Assembly: GCA_964420375.1 (NCBI GenBank)
Contig: CAYQTK010000003.1
Coordinates: 1 to 55,691, forward strand
Length of the DNA stretch: 55,691 nucleotides
Direction of reading: 5' to 3'
Origin: an uncultured bacterium
GTDB taxonomy: Bacteria > RBG-13-61-14 > DATKZS01
Of this stretch, positions 1-55,691 are shown piece after piece; the stretch's first letter is position 1, and each line of letters opens with the position of its first letter. The notes beneath the pieces were generated by a model, which was given only the letters and a program-made list of their open reading frames with translations, ran no database searches and was not told where the DNA came from. A program made the translations under genes and the position numbers.

Positions 1-82
1 GCACAGGCAGGCGTGTCCGGCACAGGCAGGCGGAACGCACAGGCAGGCGCACTCCGAAAACGGAGGTTCGCAACGGGAACTA
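1..82 (+). mobile_element. Right end of MITE-like palindromic repeat element (copy 1, cut by window edge) carrying nested mini-palindrome right halves
   Basis: Ends ...CGCACTCCGAAAACGGAGGTTCGCAACGGGAAC-TA, nearly identical to the right end of the copy at 40366-40592. Three successive GCACAGGCAGG right halves precede it. Confidence 0.85.
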
Positions 83-234
83 AATATACATCTCCTACCA
101 TGTCCATCAATATTTTCCCTCTAATGAAAACCTTCATTTTTTTGTCTTCTAATATCTTCCAACTTGATCCCGCCTTTCCCCGTGATTAACCTTAGGGAAT
201 AAGTTATTGAGTCTGAGCGGGAAAGGAGTTTGCC

Positions 235-729
235 ATGAAAGTTGGAATTATCGCTGACACGCATGACCATCTTCCCAATGTGCGCCGGTTCCTGGAGCGC
301 TTTTCAGATGCCGGCGTGGAACAGGTCCTTCATGCGGGCGACATCGTGGCGCCGTTTGTTTTCCTGGAGTTCGACAAGTACAAGCTCCCTTTCAAGGCCG
401 TGTTCGGCAACAACGACGGCGAGGTCCTGCTCCTGGAGAAGCTTGCGGAGAAGCGCGGCGAGATATTAAAAGGCCCGATAAACTTCGAGCTTTCCGGCCG
501 GAAGATCGTTCTCATGCACGAGCCGATGATGCCGGACGCCCTGGCGGACTCGGGCCATTTCGACCTGGTGGTTTACGGGCATACTCACAGCACAGACGAA
601 AGAAAGCAGGGCAAGGCCCTGATTCTCAACCCCGGCGAGGTCTGCGGCTATCTTTCGGGAAGGTCCACCGCCATGGTCTGCGACCTCGACGACCTGTCGG
701 TGGAAACCATCGAGCTTCAGCGCCGGTAG
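235..729 (+). CDS. Metallophosphoesterase, YfcE/MJ0936 phosphodiesterase family
   Basis: Calcineurin-like motifs DTHD, HAGD, GNND, YGHTH, NPG; AAGGAG RBS upstream. Confidence 0.92.
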   Translation: MKVGIIADTHDHLPNVRRFLERFSDAGVEQVLHAGDIVAPFVFLEFDKYKLPFKAVFGNNDGEVLLLEKLAEKRGEILKGPINFELSGRKIVLMHEPMMPDALADSGHFDLVVYGHTHSTDERKQGKALILNPGEVCGYLSGRSTAMVCDLDDLSVETIELQRR

Positions 730-734
730 TCTTT

Positions 735-1745
735 ATGTCCGAACCAAAAGCCTCCCTCAAAACCCGGCCGAAGAAGTACACCTGGCTGTGGCGTGTCGCA
801 ACTGCGCTGGTGTCGGCAGGCATCCTCTACTGGTTCTTCCGGGGCATTTCGTGGGACGAGGTCATAACGTCCGCCTCCGAGGCCGACTATGTTCCCGCCT
901 GGCTGGGAATGATCATCCCGGTCCTCCTGTTCTGGATTTCCGACGCCGCCTATACGGTCAAGTCCTTCGAGTGGTTCCACAAGAGGGTCCCGCTGTCCGA
1001 CTACTTCGTGATCAAGGCCGCGGCATACCTGCTGGCCATGATCAACATCGCCTTCGCCACCGGCGGAGTATTCTACTATTTTATTCGCAAGACCGGCATT
1101 ACCGTTCAAAAGCAGGTGGGCATCCTGGTCTGGCGCGAGCTCATGGTTGTGTTCGGCTGCGGCGTGTTTTTCGCTGCTCTTGCGCTCGGCGTGTTCGCAT
1201 ACAGCCGGGAGATGGCAGCGGAGGCTTTCCTGGGTTTCTGGGGACCGGCACTCGCGGCGATACTGCTTTTTTCTATCGAGTCGTGGCGGTTCTGGAGAAA
1301 GGGCAAAGGACTTTTGTTCAGGAACCTTCCTCTTTCGTACCACAAGCAGTTCTGGGAGCCTTTCCATAACCCGCAAGCCAAGCAATGGATACAGGGAATG
1401 GTCTACATGCTGCCCGCAATTCTGGCCTATTGCGTGGGCCTGTGGGTCACTGCCCGGGCATTTGACGTGTACGTGCCTTTCATCACCTTCATGTTCTGGA
1501 TCCCGCTGGTGGCACTGATATCCGCCCTGCCGGTGGCCTTCAGCAACTTCGGAACAACCACTGCCGCATGGGTGGCCTTCTTCGCAGCATATGCCGACCG
1601 TGCCGACATCATGGTGCTTACCATATTCATACCCGCAGCACGCCTCATTATCAGGGCGGTAATCGGCGCCGCCTTTGTGCCGTCGGCAATGAAAGAGCTG
1701 GAGACCGTGCCCGGCTACAAAAGCGGGGAAGAGACCTCCAACTGA
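735..1745 (+). CDS. Lysylphosphatidylglycerol synthase TM / UPF0104 flippase-like membrane protein
   Basis: About 8 hydrophobic segments, N-terminal 'LVSAGILYWFF', C-terminal 'ALPVAFSNFGTT..AWVAFF'; adjacent to a glycosyltransferase. Confidence 0.7.
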   Translation: MSEPKASLKTRPKKYTWLWRVATALVSAGILYWFFRGISWDEVITSASEADYVPAWLGMIIPVLLFWISDAAYTVKSFEWFHKRVPLSDYFVIKAAAYLLAMINIAFATGGVFYYFIRKTGITVQKQVGILVWRELMVVFGCGVFFAALALGVFAYSREMAAEAFLGFWGPALAAILLFSIESWRFWRKGKGLLFRNLPLSYHKQFWEPFHNPQAKQWIQGMVYMLPAILAYCVGLWVTARAFDVYVPFITFMFWIPLVALISALPVAFSNFGTTTAAWVAFFAAYADRADIMVLTIFIPAARLIIRAVIGAAFVPSAMKELETVPGYKSGEETSN

Positions 1746-1809
1746 AACAGCTTCAACCATTGGCCGTTGGTTTCAACGCGTCTTCGCCTTGTGTTAAATT
1801 AAACCCGGA

Positions 1810-3141
1810 ATGCCTGCACCCGTATCAAGACCTCTTCATATCGCACTTTTAAGCTACCGGGGAAACATGTTCTGCGGGGGCCAGGGAGTGTATGTAACCT
1901 CCCTTGGCAGAGGACTTGCAGAAAGGGGCCACCGGGTACGGCTGCTTTCGGGGCCGCCCTACCCCGACCGGGTTGATGGAGTGGAAACCTTGCAGCTTCC
2001 GGGAGAAAACCACATCAACAGCCCTGCTTCTCATCTCCACTCCCGGGACCCGCTGGCTGTGTTCAATCCCCTGGAGTTTGCGGAGTACACCCTGGCCCGG
2101 GCAGGTTCGAACCCGGAGATGATGGCCTTCAGCATGCGCTGTTATAATGCCCTCCGCCACATCCACTCTCATGATCCCCTGGACCTGGTATGTGATAACC
2201 AGGGGCTGGGATACGGACTCCTGCTTATAAGAGCCCTAGGCATACCGGTGGCCGCCACCGTACACCATCCCCTCCAGGTGGACCGGGCGGAGGACATCAA
2301 GCAAACCAACGGGCTCATAAAAAAAATCCGCCGTGCGATCTACTACCCGCTTTTCATGCAAAAGACAGTGGCGGCAAGGCTCGACCGGATTATCACGGTA
2401 AGCGATTTCTCGCGGGACCTTATCTCCAGGCTTTATAAGCTTGATACCGCGGCCATGGAGGTGGTGCCCAACGGCGTTGACCACGATCTTTATCGACCGC
2501 TGCCGGAAGTAAAAAGAGAACCCGGCAGGCTGTTGTTCGTGGGAAGCACCGAGGACCGCAAAAAAGGCGTCAGGTATCTGCTCGAAGCCCTGTCCGGCCT
2601 TCCTGAAAGGTACAGGTGTATCATAGTGGACGGCCGCAGATACCCGGGCCGGGTGTATGCCCGCGACCTTGCAGAGGAGCTTATGGTTTCGCATAGAGTG
2701 AGTTTCCGCGACCGCATCAGCGTGGCCGAGCTTATCGAGGAGTATAACCGGGCGGCTATAATGGTTGTGCCTTCCTTGTTCGAGGGTTTCGGCCTGCCCG
2801 CGCTTGAAGCCATGGCCTGCGGCACTCCGCTGGTGGCCACCACCGCGGGGGCGTTGCCTGAAGTGGCGGACAAGGAATGCGCATATTTTGTAAAGCCGGA
2901 AAGCTTAAGCCAAATAAAACAAGCGGTACAGGAGCTGGAATCCGATCCCCTGCGCCTGGAAAGAATGGGACGTAAAGCCAGGGAGCGGGCGGTGTCATGC
3001 TTTTCCTGGCAACGGGCCGCCCGCCGCATGGAACGAATCTTTTACGAGCTTGCAGGAGAACACAAAAACCGGGCAACCGCGGCGCACGGTCCGGTTCAAG
3101 ACACCTCTGCCGGAACTGCAAAGGGCCCCCAAGGATCATGA
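1810..3141 (+). CDS. Glycosyltransferase family 4 (GT-B)
   Basis: SYRGNMFCGGQGVY N-terminal loop, VPNGVD, RKKG, and PSLFEGFGLPALEAMACGTP (ExFGxxxxE) motif. Confidence 0.93.
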   Translation: MPAPVSRPLHIALLSYRGNMFCGGQGVYVTSLGRGLAERGHRVRLLSGPPYPDRVDGVETLQLPGENHINSPASHLHSRDPLAVFNPLEFAEYTLARAGSNPEMMAFSMRCYNALRHIHSHDPLDLVCDNQGLGYGLLLIRALGIPVAATVHHPLQVDRAEDIKQTNGLIKKIRRAIYYPLFMQKTVAARLDRIITVSDFSRDLISRLYKLDTAAMEVVPNGVDHDLYRPLPEVKREPGRLLFVGSTEDRKKGVRYLLEALSGLPERYRCIIVDGRRYPGRVYARDLAEELMVSHRVSFRDRISVAELIEEYNRAAIMVVPSLFEGFGLPALEAMACGTPLVATTAGALPEVADKECAYFVKPESLSQIKQAVQELESDPLRLERMGRKARERAVSCFSWQRAARRMERIFYELAGEHKNRATAAHGPVQDTSAGTAKGPQGS

Positions 3142-4838
3142 AAGAAGAAAGCTCCATTCTGGACAAAGGCCCTGACAAGCGTACGACGTGGCTTCTGGGA
3201 TCAATAGTGTTCATCGCCGCCCTTGCTGTAAGGCTGACCTTTCTCGACGGTCTGGGCCAGAGCCCCTCTTTTTATGTGGACCTGCAAAGGGGAAGCGACA
3301 CCTATCGCTACTTTGTGTGGGCCCTGTCCATATCCGAAAGGGGAGAACTCATTGGAGAAGGCGTCTACAACCAGGCGCCGCTCTACCCCTATTTTCTGGC
3401 GCTGGTGTTCAAGCTCACCGGTGGGGGGAACCTTATCATTCCCCGACTGGTCCAGGCGTTAATGGGATCGTTTACCGCGGTGATAGTCTTTCTTTTCAGC
3501 GCCCGGCTTAAAAACCACGCCGCGGGAGTGCTCTCCGGGCTGCTCATCGCATTTTACGGTCCGTTGCTCATGTATGACACCGCTTTTCTGCGGACCTCGC
3601 TTATAACCTTTTTAAACGTGCTGCTGTTGTATCTGCTGGCCTCGGCAAGGACCCGGCCTTCTGATAAAAAGGGCCTCGTGATCGGCCTGGTGCTGGCGCT
3701 GGCTGTGCTCGCCAAGCCCAACATCATGATCATGCTGCCTGCGCTGGCATGGTGGATCGCGGACACCAGGAAAATAAGCCATGGACTTCTAAGGGGACCG
3801 TTCTCCCATGACAAAAAGATATCCTGGATTCCCCGGCCTTCTGCCTGGAGGTCGGCAACCCTGGGCATTGTCATCGGTTTCATTTTCGTCATGGGCCCTC
3901 TGGTCATTAGAAACATAAAGGCTGATGTGTTTGCTTTTGCCCTGAGCAAGCGGGGGTCCCTCGAGTTCATAGCCGGAAACCATCCGGACGTGGGGGTAAC
4001 CGGATGGGATGTTAGCCCCTCGGTGAAAAAGATAAATGAAGGATGTCAGAACAGTATTATCAAATCCATCCCTGCGGTGTTAGAGCTGTACAGTGACAAT
4101 CCCGCCGGGCTTTTTATTAGACAGCTCAAAAAGTTCTGGGTGTTGTTGAACTGGTTCGAGGCACATGAAATCAACTACTACGTGGAGAGGCACTACCTGG
4201 ACATCCTGAAGTTGCCCTGGATCAACTGGCCGGTGCTGCTGGGAGTGGCGCTTTGCGGGATGTTCTTTGTACGAAAGGGCCCGAGGAGGTTCTTCGAATT
4301 ATATTCTTACCTTGCTCTCTACACCCTCGCCACCATCGCCTTTTACGTGAACCTGAGGTTCCGGGTCCCCATGGTTCCGGCATTGGCGGTGTTCGGGGGA
4401 ATAGGCATAGAGTCAATGTATGCACTCGGCAGACGCAAAAAGTGGAAGGCGTTCGCAGGGGCCATGGTCTTCGCTGTTTTAGTTGCCGTCATACTCTGGC
4501 CGCGACCGCAAGAGCCTCTGGGACCGAACGATTACCATAACCTGGTGCGGTATCACCTTATAAAGGAGGAGCCGGAAAAAGCCGAACAGTGGCACCGGCG
4601 AGGGCTGGACCACGCCCGGAAACTGGTTCGGGAAGAGGGCGACGCCCGCTCTCACTATCTGGTCGCCAGGATGCTGTTTCTGGGAGGCGAGCCTTTGAGC
4701 CGGGTGGAGAAAGAGCTCGACAAGGCAGAGCAATTGGAACACCGCCGACCATTGGACGCCCTTATTAAGGAGTTCCGAAAGGTCATAAAGATGCGCCGGA
4801 TCAAAGAGGACGAGTTATGGAAAGGCTACCGGATGTAA
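3138..4838 (+). CDS. GT-C glycosyltransferase (GT39/ArnT/PMT-like) with C-terminal TPR-like helices
   Basis: D-containing first periplasmic loop, QAPLYPYFLA, LAKPN, RFRVP motifs, many TM helices. Start moved to ATG 3138, which overlaps the upstream stop (ATGA). Confidence 0.8.
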   Translation: MKEESSILDKGPDKRTTWLLGSIVFIAALAVRLTFLDGLGQSPSFYVDLQRGSDTYRYFVWALSISERGELIGEGVYNQAPLYPYFLALVFKLTGGGNLIIPRLVQALMGSFTAVIVFLFSARLKNHAAGVLSGLLIAFYGPLLMYDTAFLRTSLITFLNVLLLYLLASARTRPSDKKGLVIGLVLALAVLAKPNIMIMLPALAWWIADTRKISHGLLRGPFSHDKKISWIPRPSAWRSATLGIVIGFIFVMGPLVIRNIKADVFAFALSKRGSLEFIAGNHPDVGVTGWDVSPSVKKINEGCQNSIIKSIPAVLELYSDNPAGLFIRQLKKFWVLLNWFEAHEINYYVERHYLDILKLPWINWPVLLGVALCGMFFVRKGPRRFFELYSYLALYTLATIAFYVNLRFRVPMVPALAVFGGIGIESMYALGRRKKWKAFAGAMVFAVLVAVILWPRPQEPLGPNDYHNLVRYHLIKEEPEKAEQWHRRGLDHARKLVREEGDARSHYLVARMLFLGGEPLSRVEKELDKAEQLEHRRPLDALIKEFRKVIKMRRIKEDELWKGYRM

Positions 4839-6365: not shown

Positions 6366-6540
6366 TAGAGCCTCTTGCGAAACGGAGGTTTAATTTAATT
6401 TTGCGGCGCTGTTTTAAGAGTGCAGCAGCAAGCTGTCCGCTTTTTCCGCCGAGAAGCTTGCTTGTCGGAAATGCGCTCCACAAGAGGCCCGCAGTTTAGG
6501 AGGCGCCTTTTTGCAACGGAGTTTTGCAGGAGGCTCATTA
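6366..6540 (+). mobile_element. MITE-like palindromic repeat element (copy 2, internally shortened)
   Basis: TA-GAGCCTCTTGCGAAAC ... GTTTTGCAGGAGGCTC (14/16 inverted repeat). The body aligns with copies at 40366 and 55317 but lacks the 16-bp hairpin and the right REP-like unit. Confidence 0.85.
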
Positions 6541-22963: not shown

Positions 22964-23020
22964 TATGAAAGCGCAAGCAAGCTTGTGCAGTCCAAAAACG
23001 GAGATTCCAACAAGCACTGG
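22964..23020 (+). repeat. Decayed right end of the MITE-like repeat element
   Basis: TATGAAAGCGCAAGC-AA-GCTTGTGCAGTCCAAAAACGGA aligns with TATGAAAGCGAAAGC-AA-GCTTTCGCACTCCGAAAACGGA of copy 3. Confidence 0.7.
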
Positions 23021-38894: not shown

Positions 38895-40340
38895 ATGGAT
38901 TACGAAGCTGTGATCGGGCTGGAGGTTCACGCCCAGCTTTTTACAAGGTCGAAGATATTCTGCGGCTGTTCCACCGAGTTCGGCGCGCCGCCCAACACCC
39001 GCGTTTGCCCGGTCTGTATCGGACTTCCCGGAGTCCTGCCCGTGCCTAACCGGCAGGTGGTGGAGATGGCGCTCAAGACGGCGCTTGCTCTAAACTTCGA
39101 GATTCAAAGGCGGAGCATATGGGAGCGCAAGAACTACTTTTATCCTGATCTGCCCAAGGGCTACCAGATATCGCAGTACGCATATCCGCTGGCCAGGAAC
39201 GGCTGGATCGAGATCAAGGCAGGCGAGAAAGAAAAGCGCATCGGTATCACGCGGCTTCACATGGAGGAGGACGCCGGCAAGCTGGTGCATTCCGAAGACA
39301 CCTTTTCACGTGCCAATGCGAGCTTTGCGGACTTCAACCGGAGCGGGGTCCCCCTGATGGAGATAGTGAGCGAACCCGACATCCGGTCCGCACAAGAGGC
39401 CGGGGCGTATCTGCGGGCGCTCCGGAGCATACTGGTCTACCTGGGCGTTTGCGACGGCAACATGGAGCAGGGCTCACTCCGTTGCGACGCCAACGTGAGC
39501 GTCCGTCCGCCGGGCAGTGAAGACATGGGCACTCGTGCGGAGATAAAGAACATGAACTCCTTCCGGAACGTGGAGCGGGCCCTGGACTACGAGATAAAAA
39601 GGCAGTCCCGGCTGCTGGAATCGGGCAAGAATGTGGTGCAGGAGACGCGCCTGTGGGACGACCGGGAGGGCAAGACCGTGGCCATGCGCGGCAAGGAGGA
39701 GTCCCACGACTACCGCTATTTCCCGGACCCGGACCTCTTGCCGCTGGAAGTTGACGAACAGTGGACGAAAAGGCTGCGGGAGAGACTTCCCGAGCTTCCC
39801 ATGGAAAAAATGAAGCGTTTCGTGGCCGATTACGGCATCCCCGAGTATGACGCCTCGGTGCTGACCTCGGAGCGGTCGCTGGCGGACTACTACGAGGCCG
39901 CTCTAAAGACGGGCGCGGACGCCAAGAAGACGGCCAACTGGGTCATGTCCGAGCTTCTGCGCGAGCTCAAGGATGACGAGCGCGACATAACCGACTGTCC
40001 CGTAAGCGCGGAGCAGTTGGGCTCGCTGGTGGGTATGATAGACTCGGGCGAGATCACCGGCAAGATCGGCAAGACGGTGTTCGCCGAGATGTACAAGACG
40101 GGCAAGAGCCCGGCGGAGGTCATCGAGGAGAAGGGATTGAAGCCCATGGCGGACGAGGGAGAAATCGGGAGCATCTGTGACCGGGTGATAGCGGAGAATC
40201 CCAAGCAGGTCAAGCAGTACCGGGAGGGCAAGACCAAGGTGCTGGGATTCTTTGTAGGACAGGTCATGAAGGCCAGCGGAGGCAAGGCTGACCCTCAAAT
40301 TGTCAACCGCCTGCTCACAAAAAAGCTTGAACGGGCATAG
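38895..40340 (+). CDS. gatB: Asp/Glu-tRNA amidotransferase subunit B
   Basis: [77 protein letters not shown]. Confidence 0.98.
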
Positions 40341-40365
40341 GCGGGTTTCTTATAATTTTTATAAT

Positions 40366-40592
40366 TAGTGCCCGTTGCGAAACGGAGGTTTAATTTACTT
40401 TTGCGGCGCTGTTCTGGAGTGCGGCAGCAAGCTGTCCGCTTTTTCCGCCGGGAAGCTTGCTTCCCGGAAATTTGACCCACAAGAGGCTCGCAGTTTACGG
40501 GACGCATTTTCATAAGTTCCGGCAAGCCGGAACTTATGAAAGCGAAAGCAAGCTTTCGCACTCCGAAAACGGAATTTTCGCAACGGGAACTA
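40366..40592 (+). mobile_element. MITE-like palindromic repeat element (copy 3, apparently intact, no mini-palindrome insertion)
   Basis: TAGTGCCCGTTGCGAAA ... TTTCGCAACGGGAACTA (16/17 inverted repeat including TA). Internal hairpins at 40448-40467, 40508-40541 and 40542-40559. Confidence 0.9.
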
Positions 40593-40775
40593 GTTATATT
40601 TGAGCATAAGACCGGATGATGTTATAAATATATGCGAACGCCGAGGAGCGGAAATTATAAGGCCAAGACAAATCGCCCTTAAGGAGAAGCGGGAGGAGGT
40701 TAGGCTGAGGCCCCGGTTTTTTGAAACCGAATTCCGGCTCTCCCGGCAGCTAACTATTCAGCAAGGGGGAAGAAG

Positions 40776-41588
40776 ATGATCGATTGGGACGAGCTTTTAG
40801 AGGACGTGAACTGGGGAAGGACCATTGCGTTACTGGTTGCGGGGATCCTCGTAATCGTGGTGGTTATCCTTGTTCTCATGGATTACACCAAGGCCCGTAA
40901 CCTGGAAATTCAACTGGAGACGGACCTCGATACAATAGAAATTACCAAGAGTGAACTCCGGTCACCGGGCAAGCAGCAGTTGAAACAGATCGAGCAGGAC
41001 ATTAAAAATTTGCAACAGCGGCTTGATCAAAACTCCGTCCAGGTTCCCGGGGTGTTCAGGCCGGAAGAGATAAAAAATCAAATCAACTCCCTGGCGGCGA
41101 ACAATAACGTGAACGTCATATCCGTCTCCCATCCGGAATGGGAGACCAGGAAAGAAGGGTATGCAATTATCCGGACTATTAACGTGGAGTTTACATCACG
41201 GCGACTCGGCAACGCCCGTTCTTTTATTGACGGATTGGACAGGCTCCCTTATCCGGTAACCGTGGAGTATCCGCAGCTTAACGCAGGCAATCGAATGGAA
41301 TGCACCATAAGCTTGTTCGTTTTTGACCAGGAAAAGTGGGAAAGCGATAATGTCTGCGAGCCCGATGTGGACTTTCCCGACATTCCTTTGCAGGAGAGAA
41401 AAAAAGATTATAAGGATATTTTTCTCAGTTACTTCAAAGAAGGCCCTAAAGAAATCCTGGAGAAAGTGGAACGCGAGCAGGCGGGTCTGAAGGACGTTAA
41501 AGCCGACTTCCAGGAGTACTGCGAGTTAAAAACTCAAAGAGAAAAGTTTGAGGTCCACCTCGATATTTTGAAGAAAGCCGGGGAATAA
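40776..41588 (+). CDS. Hypothetical bitopic membrane protein, weakly PilO/GspM-like
   Basis: Single N-terminal TM, coiled coil, then alternating alpha/beta region; GGGGGA RBS. Family call tentative. Confidence 0.55.
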   Translation: MIDWDELLEDVNWGRTIALLVAGILVIVVVILVLMDYTKARNLEIQLETDLDTIEITKSELRSPGKQQLKQIEQDIKNLQQRLDQNSVQVPGVFRPEEIKNQINSLAANNNVNVISVSHPEWETRKEGYAIIRTINVEFTSRRLGNARSFIDGLDRLPYPVTVEYPQLNAGNRMECTISLFVFDQEKWESDNVCEPDVDFPDIPLQERKKDYKDIFLSYFKEGPKEILEKVEREQAGLKDVKADFQEYCELKTQREKFEVHLDILKKAGE

Positions 41589-55316: not shown

Positions 55317-55596
55317 TAGTGCCCGTTGCGAAACGGAGGTTTAATTTGCTTTTGCGGCGCTGTTTTGGAATGCGGCAGCAAGCTGTTCGCTTTTTCCGCC
55401 GGGATACTTGCTTGTCGGAAATGCGCTCCACAAGAGGCTCACAGTTTGCGAGGCGCCTGTTTGTAAGTTCCGGCAAGCCGGAACTTATGAAAGCGAAAGC
55501 AAGCTTTCCTGTCTGCCCTGTCTGCGTGTCCGCACAGGCAGGCGTGTCCGGCACAGGCAGGCGCACTCCGAAAACGGAGTTTCGAAACAGGCTCTA
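55317..55596 (+). mobile_element. MITE-like palindromic repeat element (copy 4) with doubly nested mini-palindrome insertion
   Basis: TA-GTGCCCGTTGCGAAAC ... GTTTCGAAACAGGCTC-TA; colinear with copy 3 apart from a 54-bp insert at 55508-55561. Confidence 0.9.
55508..55561. repeat. Nested CCTGTCTG...CAGGCAGG mini-palindromes
   Basis: CCTGTCTGC [CCTGTCTGCGTGTCCGCACAGGCAGG] CGTGTCCGGCACAGGCAGG; absent at the same site in copy 3 (TTT^CGCACTCC). Confidence 0.88.
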
Positions 55597-55691
55597 AATA
55601 TTTTTCGTGAGAGCGACTGATACCGCGTTTTTCGTGCTAGCCCGAGTTTCCTAGTTATAAAACAAACGCTCTAGTTCCCTATATATTCCAG

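What the first reader, a model, noticed from the sequence alone, without database searches (positions are those of the whole stretch)
40366..40592. Composite repeat family: IS-like terminal inverted repeats wrapped around a REP-like doublet (copies at 1-82, 6366-6540, 40366-40592, 55317-55596, fragment 22964-23020)
Seen: four intergenic copies and one fragment in 55 kb, all in the same orientation, with ~16-17 bp terminal inverted repeats flanked by TA. Inside copy 3 is an inverted pair GGAGTGCG-[hairpin]-CGCTTT (40416-40442) and AAAGCG-[hairpin]-CGCACTCC (40539-40564), with further perfect hairpins between them. Known: TA-flanked TIRs are the mark of DDE-transposase MITEs (the GAGCC..TTGCGAAA ends recall IS5-family ends), while short-tail + palindrome doublets are the mark of REP/REPIN elements mobilised by HUH (RAYT/TnpA-REP) enzymes. 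Inference: this is a hybrid non-autonomous element in which a REPIN-like unit rides inside a MITE shell. No transposase is encoded in the window, so any mobiliser acts in trans.
Basis: partly seen in the sequence, partly recalled or inferred. Interest (0 to 1): 0.78.

Follow-up and report, generated by a model that had tools for sequence, protein, structure and literature searches.

The report
REP doublet inside a transposon shell
A 227-base repeat present more than a hundred times in this bacterium's genome is a pair of palindromic REP units carried between the inverted-repeat ends of a cut-down insertion sequence, so it joins two kinds of small mobile DNA that are usually treated as separate.

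Summary
The 227-bp copy at 40366-40592 belongs to a family ("A") with 263 matches to its end sequence in the 4.43-Mb assembly, about 10 of them expected by chance. The ends are 17-bp inverted repeats (TAGTGCCCGTTGCGAAA). Inside lies an inverted pair of GGAGT-tagged palindromes.

The shell behaves like a DDE-type MITE. Orthologous sites are empty in both directions between two species of the genus. Copies with no cargo, or with unrelated cargo, still show the duplication.

The cargo is REPIN-like. The same motif occurs 93-95 times in two sister genera. In one of them (G004) bare doublets flank a RAYT-like gene. In the other (G002) they sit inside GAGCCTCTTGCAAAA ends shared with an intact 1373-bp IS5/IS1182-like element.

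The window's genome shows neither that transposase nor that RAYT, so the mobiliser of family A is unidentified. No Rfam match was found, and four literature searches listed no description of this architecture. I rate it a new variant of known kinds, of moderately high interest.

The parts
40366..40592 (+). Complete family-A element (copy 3, 227 bp)
   Evidence: It is the 100% reference, and 40 listed genome matches lie at 84-94% identity.
40366..40382 (+). Left terminal inverted repeat TAGTGCCCGTTGCGAAA
   Evidence: 263 genome matches at <=3 mismatches.
40576..40592 (-). Right terminal inverted repeat (reverse complement TAGTTCCCGTTGCGAAA; 16 of 17 bases match the left end)
40362..40365 (.). 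Left flank TA-AT. The outer TA is target preference. The next 2 bp are the position that is duplicated in most copies; in this copy they read AT, against GT on the right.
40593..40596 (.). Right flank GT-TA
40416..40442 (+). Left REP unit GGAGTGCG-hairpin-CGCTTT, followed by a T run (terminator-like)
40539..40564 (-). Right REP unit, inverted with respect to the left one
40448..40467 (.). Perfect hairpin CCGGGAAGC-TT-GCTTCCCGG
   Evidence: Read.
40511..40538 (.). Perfect 13-bp-stem hairpin CATAAGTTCCGGC-AA-GCCGGAACTTATG
   Evidence: Read; folded.
55317..55596 (+). Copy 4, a long variant (280 bp). An insert rich in CAGACAGG / CACAGGCAGG short repeats lies between the right hairpin and CGCACTCC.
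6366..6538 (+). Copy 2. It has family-C type ends (GAGCCTCTTGCGAAA at 6368-6382; GAGCCTCCTGCAAAA at 6522-6536 on the - strand), a family-A type left interior and one REP unit only. Flanks are CTTA / ATTA.
1..82 (+). Copy 1: the right end of a long variant, cut by the contig start
22964..23020 (+). Degenerate right-end fragment (right REP plus a decayed end)
   Evidence: Not recovered by BLAST at E<=1e-4.

Best explanation
Family A is a non-autonomous transposable element (a MITE). Its 17-bp inverted ends are recognised by a DDE-type transposase supplied in trans. Its usual cargo is a REPIN-like unit: two GGAGT-tagged REP palindromes in inverted orientation, with two further hairpins between them.

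Shown:
- The ends, not the cargo, define the mobile unit.
- Insertion goes into TA-NN-TA sites and duplicates the central 2 bp.
- The element is present or absent at orthologous sites of two species of the genus.
- The cargo motif is an independent, structurally constrained REP family across the bacterial family. In G004 it is associated with a RAYT-like gene.
- In G002 the same cargo lies within ends shared with an intact IS5/IS1182-like insertion sequence.

Inferred:
- An ancestral REPIN was enclosed by IS-derived ends and has since been spread by DDE transposition.
- The family-A ends are a diverged version of the GAGCCTCTTGCAAAA ends (11-12 of 15 positions agree, and window copy 2 is an intermediate).
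- The mobiliser is, or was, a relative of the G002 transposase. About 0.4 for this last step.
- In this genome the family is now probably orphaned or slow. No matching transposase was found, and the copies are on average 88.7% identical (maximum 94.7%).
- Side effects on the host are likely REP-like. Each REP is a hairpin followed by a T run, so a doublet looks like a two-way terminator or an mRNA-stabilising structure.
For: Copy number and ends:
- 263 end matches, 56 facing pairs and size classes near 187, 226, 255 and 280 bp. 101 of 344 contigs have an end motif within 350 bp of a contig end.

Target and duplication:
- T at -4 in 224 of 261 ends and A at -3 in 228 of 261.
- The dinucleotide is identical on both sides in 37 of 53 pairs, against 6.8 expected (maximum 16 in 2000 shuffles).
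- In five copies that lie against the ends of other repeats (C53, C204, C189, C169, C49), only a 2-bp duplication reconstructs a sensible pre-insertion site.

Shell moves without its usual cargo:
- 39-bp and 42-bp TIR-only copies, and 455-bp and 644-bp copies with other cargo, all have identical flanking hexamers.

Empty sites:
- The gatB intergenic gap is 406 bp here and 177 bp in G001, a difference of 229 bp.
- The G001:C93 copy is absent from G000:C231.

Cargo as an independent REP family:
- Motif counts are G000 83, G001 28, G002 93, G004 95, G007 18 and G003 6, with controls 0-1.
- Stem positions 9-11/18-20 show changes on both sides in 15 cells, reached by 0 of 500 shuffles.
- G004:C41 has a 176-aa Y1 gene (Pfam Y1_Tnp 25.9 bits against a cut-off of 23; NCBIfam REP_Tyr_transpos 79.9 against 80) with doublets on both sides.

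Shell and cargo together:
- TTGCRAAA lies within 4-34 nt of GGAGTGCG 99 times in G000, 73 in G002, 15 in G001, 3 in G003, 1 in G004 and 1 in G007, with controls 0.
- In G000, 74 of 83 motifs lie within 300 bp of a family-A end and 5 more lie in degenerate copies.

Autonomous relative:
- The G002 element is 1373 bp, has two intact copies, carries GAGCCTCTTGCAAAA ends and encodes a 390-aa DUF772 + DDE_Tnp_1 protein.

Independent assemblies:
- In four runs of one study the contigs break at 40361-40366, and the summed word depth on the element is 139-4727 against 5-12 on the flanks.
Against: - No transposase with family-A ends was found. The six DDE_Tnp_1 loci of G000 have other ends or are relics.
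- G000 has no DDE_3, no rve, and no homologue of the G002 transposase. G001 also lacks that homologue.
- Family-C copies in G000 show 4-bp duplications (TACA, TAAA, ATCA, TGCG). Family A duplicates 2 bp and carries an extra terminal TA, so the two shells may not use the same enzyme.
- 16 of 53 complete copies, including copy 3 itself (AT against GT), lack an identical dinucleotide.
- The two empty sites lie in diverged intergenic DNA, so the exact pre-insertion sequence could not be read.
- The G004 RAYT score is at, not above, the NCBIfam cut-off.
- The direction of the event is not resolved: a REPIN captured by a shell, or a shell interior adopted by a RAYT.
- The assembly is 96% complete in 344 contigs, and repeats are exactly what is missing from it.
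Confidence: 0.75

Rival explanations
1. The mobiliser is an IS630/Tc1-mariner-type (DDE_3) transposase rather than an IS5/IS1182-type one. The shell would be a relative of the IS630-like elements of this bacterial family, which make 2-bp staggered cuts.
For: - The duplication is 2 bp long. From my recollection of ISfinder, that is the IS630 length.
- IS630-like elements in the relatives begin TAG(T/A)G, like family A: G001 TAGTGTGCTGTCCCA, G003/G004 TAGTGTCATGTCAAC, G002 TAGAGCACTT.
- The second repeat family of this genome (B, TAGTGYCYTGTCAAGC) matches the G003/G004 IS630-like ends at 14 of 16 positions.
Against: - The duplicated dinucleotide is variable and lies outside the TA, so it is not TA itself.
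- Beyond the first 5-7 bases the family-A end resembles the GAGCCTCTTGCAAAA end much more closely: 11-12 of 15 positions, with window copy 2 as an intermediate.
- No DDE_3 gene was found in G000.
Confidence: 0.2
2. The whole element is a REPIN moved by a RAYT (HUH single-strand transposition). On this reading the 'terminal inverted repeats' are only the outer arms of a long palindrome.
For: - The element is one long imperfect palindrome.
- A RAYT-like gene exists in G000.
- GGAGT doublets flank a RAYT-like gene in G004.
Against: - A flanking 2-bp duplication is found in 37 of 53 copies.
- End-only copies without any REP keep the duplication.
- The G000 RAYT is flanked by a different REP, GCGAC-loop-GTCGC-TCGCAC.
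- None of the 16 Y1 loci that fetched, nor G000's own Y1 locus (L123), holds the GGAGT motif; only the separately fetched G004:C41 locus (L250) does.
- G000 has no homologue of the G004 RAYT closer than 30% identity.
Confidence: 0.07
3. The hairpin core is not an independent REPIN. It is a functional part of the transposon, for example subterminal transposase or host-factor binding sites, and its association with a Y1 gene in G004 is secondary.
For: - Core and shell co-occur in G000, G001, G002 and G003.
- The core sits symmetrically next to both ends.
Against: - In G004, 95 REP motifs contrast with 1 shell-adjacent motif.
- Three bare doublets surround the Y1 gene.
- The intact G002 insertion sequence carries no such core between its ends: L251 holds one motif, and it lies outside the IS.
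- Shells move without the core.
Confidence: 0.08
4. It is a host-selected structural or regulatory repeat (a terminator or mRNA-stabilising module) that spread by recombination rather than transposition.
For: - There are 5 terminator-like sites in 40300-40800 against 0.9 in shuffles.
- Orientation is weakly co-directional with neighbouring genes: 102 of 168 ends, p = 0.007, on crude ORF calls.
Against: - Precise ends, target preference and duplication.
- Element-sized presence/absence between the two species.
- More than 100 dispersed loci with unrelated flanks.
Confidence: 0.04

Closest known systems
Prokaryotic MITEs (Correia/NEMIS, RUP, Nezha, Chunjie)
   Same: Size of about 100-300 bp, no coding capacity, 15-30 bp inverted ends, flanking duplication, high copy number, intergenic location and a strongly folding transcript. 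These features are as described in passages of PMC3184786 and PMC3733652, and were tested here.
   Different: - No cognate insertion sequence is present in the same genome.
- The duplication is a variable dinucleotide inside TA-NN-TA. Chunjie has 9-bp repeats (passage of PMC3184786). RUP and Correia duplicate TA (recalled, not read here).
- The interior is a REP doublet that exists independently elsewhere.
REPIN-RAYT systems
   Same: Two REP palindromes in inverted orientation with a conserved tail. The stem is kept by compensatory change. A RAYT-like gene is flanked by the units in G004. The units are vertically widespread across a bacterial family.
   Different: - In this genome the doublet lies inside inverted ends with a target duplication, and no cognate RAYT was found.
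- The tag is GGAGT, not the GTAG or CGTC of the families in PMC3733652 (abstract and passages).
- The doublet span of about 150 bp is longer than I recall for Pseudomonas REPINs.
- Passages of bioRxiv 10.1101/2021.07.10.451892 treat REPINs and MITEs as distinct classes.
IS5/IS1182-superfamily insertion sequence of G002 (1373 bp) and its family-C MITEs
   Same: The ends GAGCCTCTTGCAAAA agree with the family-A ends at 11-12 of 15 positions. In G002 the same ends enclose the same REP doublet in units of about 186 bp.
   Different: - Family A has an extra terminal TA and a 2-bp duplication, whereas family-C copies show 4 bp.
- The transposase scores below the NCBIfam equivalog cut-offs for both IS1182 (79.7 against 270) and IS5 (78.7 against 140).
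- No homologue was found in G000 or G001.
REP-plus-unrelated-stem-loop composites flanking Pseudomonas RAYT genes; TIRtrons/TIRYTs (Di Nocera et al. 2013)
   Same: REP units joined to other inverted repeats and present in hundreds of copies, and Y1 transposases flanked by long inverted repeats (passages of PMC3733652).
   Different: Those structures are tied to Y1 genes, and no target duplication or DDE partner is described in the passages I read. Figures and supplements were not seen.
MITE with an internal minisatellite in Porphyromonas gingivalis
   Same: A MITE with variable internal short tandem repeats, like the CACAGGCAGG inserts of the long family-A variants (search listing and abstract of PMC4596501).
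   Different: It has no REP doublet cargo. I did not read the paper beyond the abstract.

Membership tests
MITE | Short (<~500 bp) and non-coding | tested here: met
   Of the 56 facing pairs, 52 are <=345 bp. The interior is made of hairpins.
MITE | Terminal inverted repeats | tested here: met
   17 bp, with 16 of 17 bases matching in copy 3. 263 genome matches.
MITE | Target-site duplication | tested here: met
   A 2-bp duplication in 37 of 53 pairs, against 6.8 expected.
MITE | Presence/absence at orthologous sites | tested here: met
   One site in each direction between G000 and G001. A third locus could not be judged because synteny is broken.
MITE | Autonomous element with the same ends in the genome | tested here: not met
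   No facing pair of 700-3000 bp holds a transposase gene. The related ends are seen only on the G002 element.
REPIN-RAYT | Palindromic unit with a conserved tail, in inverted doublets | tested here: met
   The doublet lies at 40416-40442 (+) and 40539-40564 (-).
REPIN-RAYT | Cognate RAYT gene flanked by the units, in the same genome | tested here: not met
   The one Y1 gene of G000 is flanked by a different REP. The feature is met only in G004.
REPIN-RAYT | Insertion without target duplication or transposon-type ends | tested here: not met
   Duplication and ends are present.
IS5/IS1182-derived element | Ends matching those of an IS5/IS1182-type insertion sequence | tested here: inconclusive
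   11-12 of 15 positions agree with the G002 element's ends, and copy 2 agrees at 14 of 15.
IS5/IS1182-derived element | Same duplication length as its relatives | tested here: not met
   Family C shows 4 bp and family A shows 2 bp.
IS630/Tc1-mariner-derived MITE | Duplication of a TA target | tested here: not met
   The duplicated dinucleotide is variable and lies outside the conserved TA.
IS630/Tc1-mariner-derived MITE | DDE_3 transposase in the genome | tested here: not met
   0 matches in G000 and one gene in G001.
Any Rfam family | Covariance-model match | tested here: not met
   0 matches at gathering scores in the window. 0 matches at E<=1 on 40340-40620.

The most novel reading that the evidence does not exclude
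A REPIN lineage changed its means of propagation. It was originally copied by a RAYT (HUH enzyme), the state kept in G004. It was then enclosed by the ends of an IS5/IS1182-like element, the state in G002, which still has the intact insertion sequence. After that it was amplified by DDE transposition to more than 100 copies in a genus where neither the RAYT nor the insertion sequence can now be found. If so, REPINs and MITEs are not separate evolutionary classes: one can ride the other. A vertically inherited REP population could then outlive, or escape, its dedicated transposase.
Probability: 0.35. Interest if true: 0.78.

Novelty: new variant of a known kind. Interest (0 to 1): 0.66.

Why it matters
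REP/REPIN elements (HUH-mobilised, single-copy RAYT, long-lived, vertically inherited) and MITEs (DDE-mobilised, short-lived parasites of insertion sequences) are presented as distinct classes with different population dynamics (passages of bioRxiv 10.1101/2021.07.10.451892).

This bacterial family offers three states of one REP family side by side:
- G004: bare doublets around a RAYT-like gene.
- G002: doublets inside ends shared with an intact insertion sequence.
- G000: an orphan shell-plus-doublet family at more than 100 copies.

That makes it directly testable whether a REPIN can be propagated by a DDE transposase, and what happens to a REP population when its RAYT is lost.

There is also a practical point. 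The family and its companions break this assembly: 101 of 344 contigs have a family-A end within 350 bp of a contig end.

Tried and rejected
- Parent IS among the DDE_Tnp_1 loci of G000:
  - The IS1634-family gene in C219 lies next to a family-A end, but it has its own ends (AACGGATGTTCCCTC, seen in G001:C71). It is inserted into family-A copies in C219 and C287.
  - C343 and C294 have CCTGAGTTTAC-type ends.
  - C117, C8 and C258 are partial or relics.
- A multi-copy sequence joined right after the right-type end in C312, C320, C78 and C35 looked like a possible parent. It is most likely an IS110-family insertion. Its G007 relative scores 203.5 bits as an IS110 RNA-guided transposase. Its interior is not assembled in G000 (PF01548: 0 matches).
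- The search for related loci with the C219 transposase found nothing in genome contigs.
- The scan of genome contigs for the exact end motif gave mostly single matches. My arithmetic expects over 100 chance matches in 596 Gb. One public MAG record had 9 matches on 7 contigs.
- The copy 2 locus could not be compared with G001 because synteny is broken.
- Duplications of 6 bp and 4 bp were considered and rejected, on five copies that abut other repeats.
- Sequencing runs: no RNA holder is listed. All four runs laid are contigs from one study, possibly the source sample. No contig bridges an empty site, and one small internal 42-bp skip variant was seen in three of the four runs.
- Literature: four searches listed no paper describing a REP doublet inside IS-type ends, and none on such repeats in this lineage. 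Only abstracts and passages were read, and supplements and figures were not seen, so a description may exist.

Full report
**1. What is in the window.**

The window is a whole contig (G000:C3) of a 4.43-Mb assembly in 344 contigs, 96% complete. Its GatB is at most 63% identical to named public records, and the best of these are Syntrophales/Syntrophobacterales-type MAGs.

Copy 3 (40366-40592, 227 bp) lies between gatB and an unassigned ORF. Read along its length, it consists of:
- TAGTGCCCGTTGCGAAA at the left end, followed by an A+T-rich stretch.
- The left REP unit, GGAGTGCG-hairpin-CGCTTTTT (40416-40442).
- A perfect 9-bp-stem hairpin (40448-40467).
- A 43-bp spacer.
- A perfect 13-bp-stem hairpin (40511-40538).
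- The right REP unit, AAAGCG-hairpin-CGCACTCC (40539-40564).
- A small CTCCG-type hairpin.
- The right end, TTTCGCAACGGGAACTA.

The two ends agree at 16 of 17 positions.

The element folds far better than shuffled sequence: z -7.0 as DNA and -8.1 as RNA. Rfam has no match at gathering scores in the window, nor at E<=1 on the element.

**2. How common it is.**

BLASTN of copy 3 against the genome gives 193 aligned pieces. Positions 3-198 are covered 92-132 times and positions 199-233 are covered 48-61 times. The drop arises because long variants carry an insert at position 198/199.

The 17-mer end has 263 matches at <=3 mismatches. My own arithmetic puts the chance expectation at about 10. Of the 263, 106 have the left-type interior, 103 the right-type and 54 another or none.

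Other figures:
- 56 facing pairs exist, and their sizes cluster near 187, 226, 255 and 280 bp.
- 101 of 344 contigs have an end motif within 350 bp of a contig end, so the family breaks the assembly.
- BLAST-covered family-A DNA is 31,086 bp in 224 merged loci.
- Seventeen standard-length copies are on average 88.7% identical pairwise, with a maximum of 94.7%. There is therefore no sign of very recent copying.
- In four public runs of one study (possibly the source), contigs break at 40361-40366 with heterogeneous continuations. Summed word depth on the element is 139-4727, against 5-12 on the flanks.

**3. The shell behaves as a transposon.**

Outside the conserved TAG there is a variable dinucleotide and then TA. 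T occupies -4 in 224 of 261 ends, and A occupies -3 in 228 of 261.

In 53 complete copies the dinucleotide is the same on both sides in 37. Shuffled partners give 6.8 on average, with a maximum of 16 in 2000 shuffles. The whole hexamer TANNTA is identical in 27.

A 6-bp, a 4-bp and a 2-bp duplication all predict the same empty site. Five copies that abut the ends of other repeats decide between them:
- In C53, C204 and C189 the flanks read TAGT | element | GTGC (or GTCC). A 2-bp model restores a normal TAGTGC end of the neighbouring repeat.
- In C169 and C49 the same model restores ...GGCACTA.
- The 4-bp and 6-bp models fail on these copies.

So the terminal TA belongs to the element, and the duplication is the next 2 bp.

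The ends alone suffice. Copies of 39 and 42 bp are just two ends, and they are flanked by TAAATA on both sides. Copies of 455 bp (carrying a tandem array of another REP) and of 644 bp keep identical flanking hexamers.

Orthologous sites differ between the two species of the genus:
- The gatB intergenic gap is 406 bp here and 177 bp in G001:C273. The difference is 229 bp, and the element plus 2 bp is also 229 bp. The ends of BLAST pieces are only approximate.
- The G001:C93 copy, flanked by TAAATA on both sides, is absent from G000:C231.
- Both intergenic regions are diverged, so the exact empty-site sequence could not be read.
- A third locus could not be compared.

G001 copies are 74-84% identical to copy 3, while G000 copies are 84-94% identical. 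This fits amplification, or homogenisation, within each species.

**4. The cargo is an independent REP family.**

The motif GGAGTGCG-N8-24-CGCTTT was counted on both strands. Reversed-pattern controls gave 0-1.

| Genome | Motif count |
|---|---|
| G000 | 83 |
| G001 | 28 |
| G002 | 93 |
| G004 | 95 |
| G007 | 18 |
| G003 | 6 |
| Rest of the order | 0-5 |

The motifs often occur as inverted pairs about 100-160 bp apart.

I aligned twenty 26-nt units from seven genomes; 15 are distinct. The three variable stem pairs show changes on both sides in 15 cells, which 0 of 500 shuffles reach. 91.4% of cells are paired, against 23-73% when the partner is slid. The flanks were fixed by the search pattern, but the stem was not.

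In G004:C41 a 176-aa Y1 gene is flanked on both sides by complete doublets, and a third doublet lies 1.4 kb away. It scores 25.9 bits on Pfam Y1_Tnp (cut-off 23) and 79.9 bits on NCBIfam REP-associated tyrosine transposase (cut-off 80). The doublets there have no TAGTGCC or GAGCC ends. This is the arrangement that defines RAYT-REPIN systems (abstracts of PMC3337134 and PMC3116915; passages of PMC3733652).

None of the 16 Y1 loci that fetched, nor G000's own Y1 locus (L123), holds the motif; it is found only in L250, the G004:C41 stretch I fetched separately.

G000 has one Y1 gene, at C4:35984-36301 between riboflavin genes. It is flanked by a different REP, GCGAC-loop-GTCGC-TCGCAC. Its similarity to the G004 protein is 30% over 94 residues.

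**5. Shell and cargo together, across genera.**

The end core TTGCRAAA lies 4-34 nt from GGAGTGCG 99 times in G000, 73 in G002, 15 in G001, 3 in G003, 1 in G004 and 1 in G007. Controls gave 0.

Of the 83 motifs in G000:
- 74 lie within 300 bp of a family-A end.
- 5 more lie in copies with decayed ends.
- 2 lie in unique sequence that looks coding.
- 2 are shell-less relics.

In G002 the shell ends are GAGCCTCTTGCAAAA, with 109 matches at <=1 mismatch. The other counts are G001 55, G004 26, G000 21 and G003 6, with controls 0-2.

The same ends bound a 1373-bp element present in two intact copies. It encodes a 390-aa protein with DUF772 and DDE_Tnp_1 domains. Its best NCBIfam matches are IS1182 (79.7 bits) and IS5 (78.7 bits), both below their cut-offs. 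A REP-carrying unit lies 11 bp from one of these copies.

This protein has no homologue in G000, G001 or G003 with this query.

The family-A end agrees with this end at 11-12 of 15 positions. Window copy 2 carries the GAGCC-type ends (14 of 15) around a family-A type left interior.

Family-C copies in G000 carry other cargo, and their duplications look 4 bp long: TACA, TAAA, ATCA and TGCG. Some are imperfect.

**6. Which enzyme moves family A.**

This is not settled.
- For an IS5/IS1182-type enzyme: the similarity of the ends and the complete system in G002.
- For an IS630-type enzyme: the 2-bp stagger and the TAG(T/A)G start shared with IS630-like elements in G001-G004.
- G000 shows no DDE_3, no rve and no IS110 catalytic domain. 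Its six DDE_Tnp_1 loci have other ends or are relics.

Either the mobiliser is lost or it lies in unassembled repeats.

**7. Likely effects on the host.**

Each REP is a G+C-rich hairpin followed by T's. The scan finds 5 terminator-like sites in 40300-40800, against 0.9 in shuffles.

Orientation is weakly co-directional with neighbouring genes: 102 of 168 ends, binomial p = 0.007. This rests on crude longest-ORF gene calls, and 52 of 263 ends fell 'inside' such ORFs. It is a hint, not a finding.

**8. Comparison with what is known, and novelty.**

The element meets the structural definition of a MITE, except that no cognate insertion sequence is present in the genome. Its cargo meets the structural definition of a REP doublet, but not the REPIN criteria of a cognate RAYT in the same genome and duplication-free insertion.

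Three related things are in print:
- Composites of REP units with unrelated stem-loops, and Y1 genes flanked by long inverted repeats (passages of PMC3733652).
- MITEs with internal minisatellites (abstract of PMC4596501).
- IS110-family insertion into REPs (passage of PMC3184786; abstract of PMC12288879).

Four searches listed no description of a REP doublet packaged within IS-type ends alongside an autonomous DDE partner. I read only abstracts and passages, and saw no figures or supplements.

I therefore rate it a new variant of known kinds. Its interest lies in the three states seen among sister genera, which make a switch from HUH to DDE propagation testable.

Noticed in passing
G000 genome-wide (e.g. 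C6:12535-12653, C12:14506-14624); not in the window at <=3 mismatches: A second and more abundant repeat, family B, has 332 matches to the end TAGTGCCCTGTCAAGCG. 17 of 45 facing pairs are 117-120 bp. It wraps a doublet of the other REP (GTGCGAGCGAC-loop-GTCGC...), the one that flanks the genome's only RAYT-like gene. Copies often abut head to head, sharing CTAG. This is the same 'shell around REP' design as the finding.
   Followed up: partly
G000:C4:35984-36301 (- strand): A single RAYT-like gene lies between riboflavin-synthesis genes. It scores 48.6 bits on Y1_Tnp, and a 106-aa piece scores 73 bits on REP_Tyr_transpos against a cut-off of 80. It is flanked by GCGAC-loop-GTCGC-TCGCAC units and by family-B copies.
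   Followed up: partly
G000:C312:1-240, C320:2480-2748, C78:17130-17258, C35:1-100: A multi-copy sequence is joined at the same point, right after the family-A right-type end and its CTCCGTTTTTGGAG hairpin. It starts an ORF, MSNVTKNE...FCGLDLHDKSM. A relative in G007:C72 scores 203.5 bits as an IS110-family RNA-guided transposase. This looks like site-specific insertion of an IS110-type element into the repeat. Its interior is not assembled in G000.
   Followed up: partly
G000:C219:5476-7247 and C287:880-1230: An IS1634-family element (291.5 bits; own ends AACGGATGTTCCCTC) is inserted inside two family-A copies. Several deletion relics lie elsewhere.
   Followed up: yes
window 1-45 and 55509-55560: Short tandem repeats of the CACAGGCAGGCG and CAGACAGGG types form the insert that distinguishes the long family-A variants. 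The same motif also occurs inside the REP unit of G003 and in family-C copies.
   Followed up: no
window 55597-55691: Right after copy 4 comes a fragment of the other REP type (...cgtgagagcgactgataccgcg...), and then the contig ends.
   Followed up: no
G000:C9:31661-32115 and C223:3516-4520: Family-A shells with unusual cargo. One (455 bp) holds about five tandem 36-bp units of the RAYT-type REP, with TATGTA on both flanks. The other holds a 1005-bp insert of unknown nature.
   Followed up: no
L189 (G001:C56), L187 (G004:C224), L188 (G003:C30), L186 (G002:C1): IS630-like (DDE_3) elements occur in the relatives; G002 has seven identical 1000-bp copies. The ends of the G003/G004 elements (TAGTGTCATGTCAAC) match the family-B ends at 14 of 16 positions. 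G000 has no DDE_3 gene.
   Followed up: partly
G000:C51:4323-4512, C92:1043-1231, C177:1912-2140, C251:5423-5611: Family-C MITEs (ends GAGCCTCTTGCAAAA) of 100-229 bp carry a different cargo and show 4-bp duplications. No matching transposase is found in this genome.
   Followed up: partly
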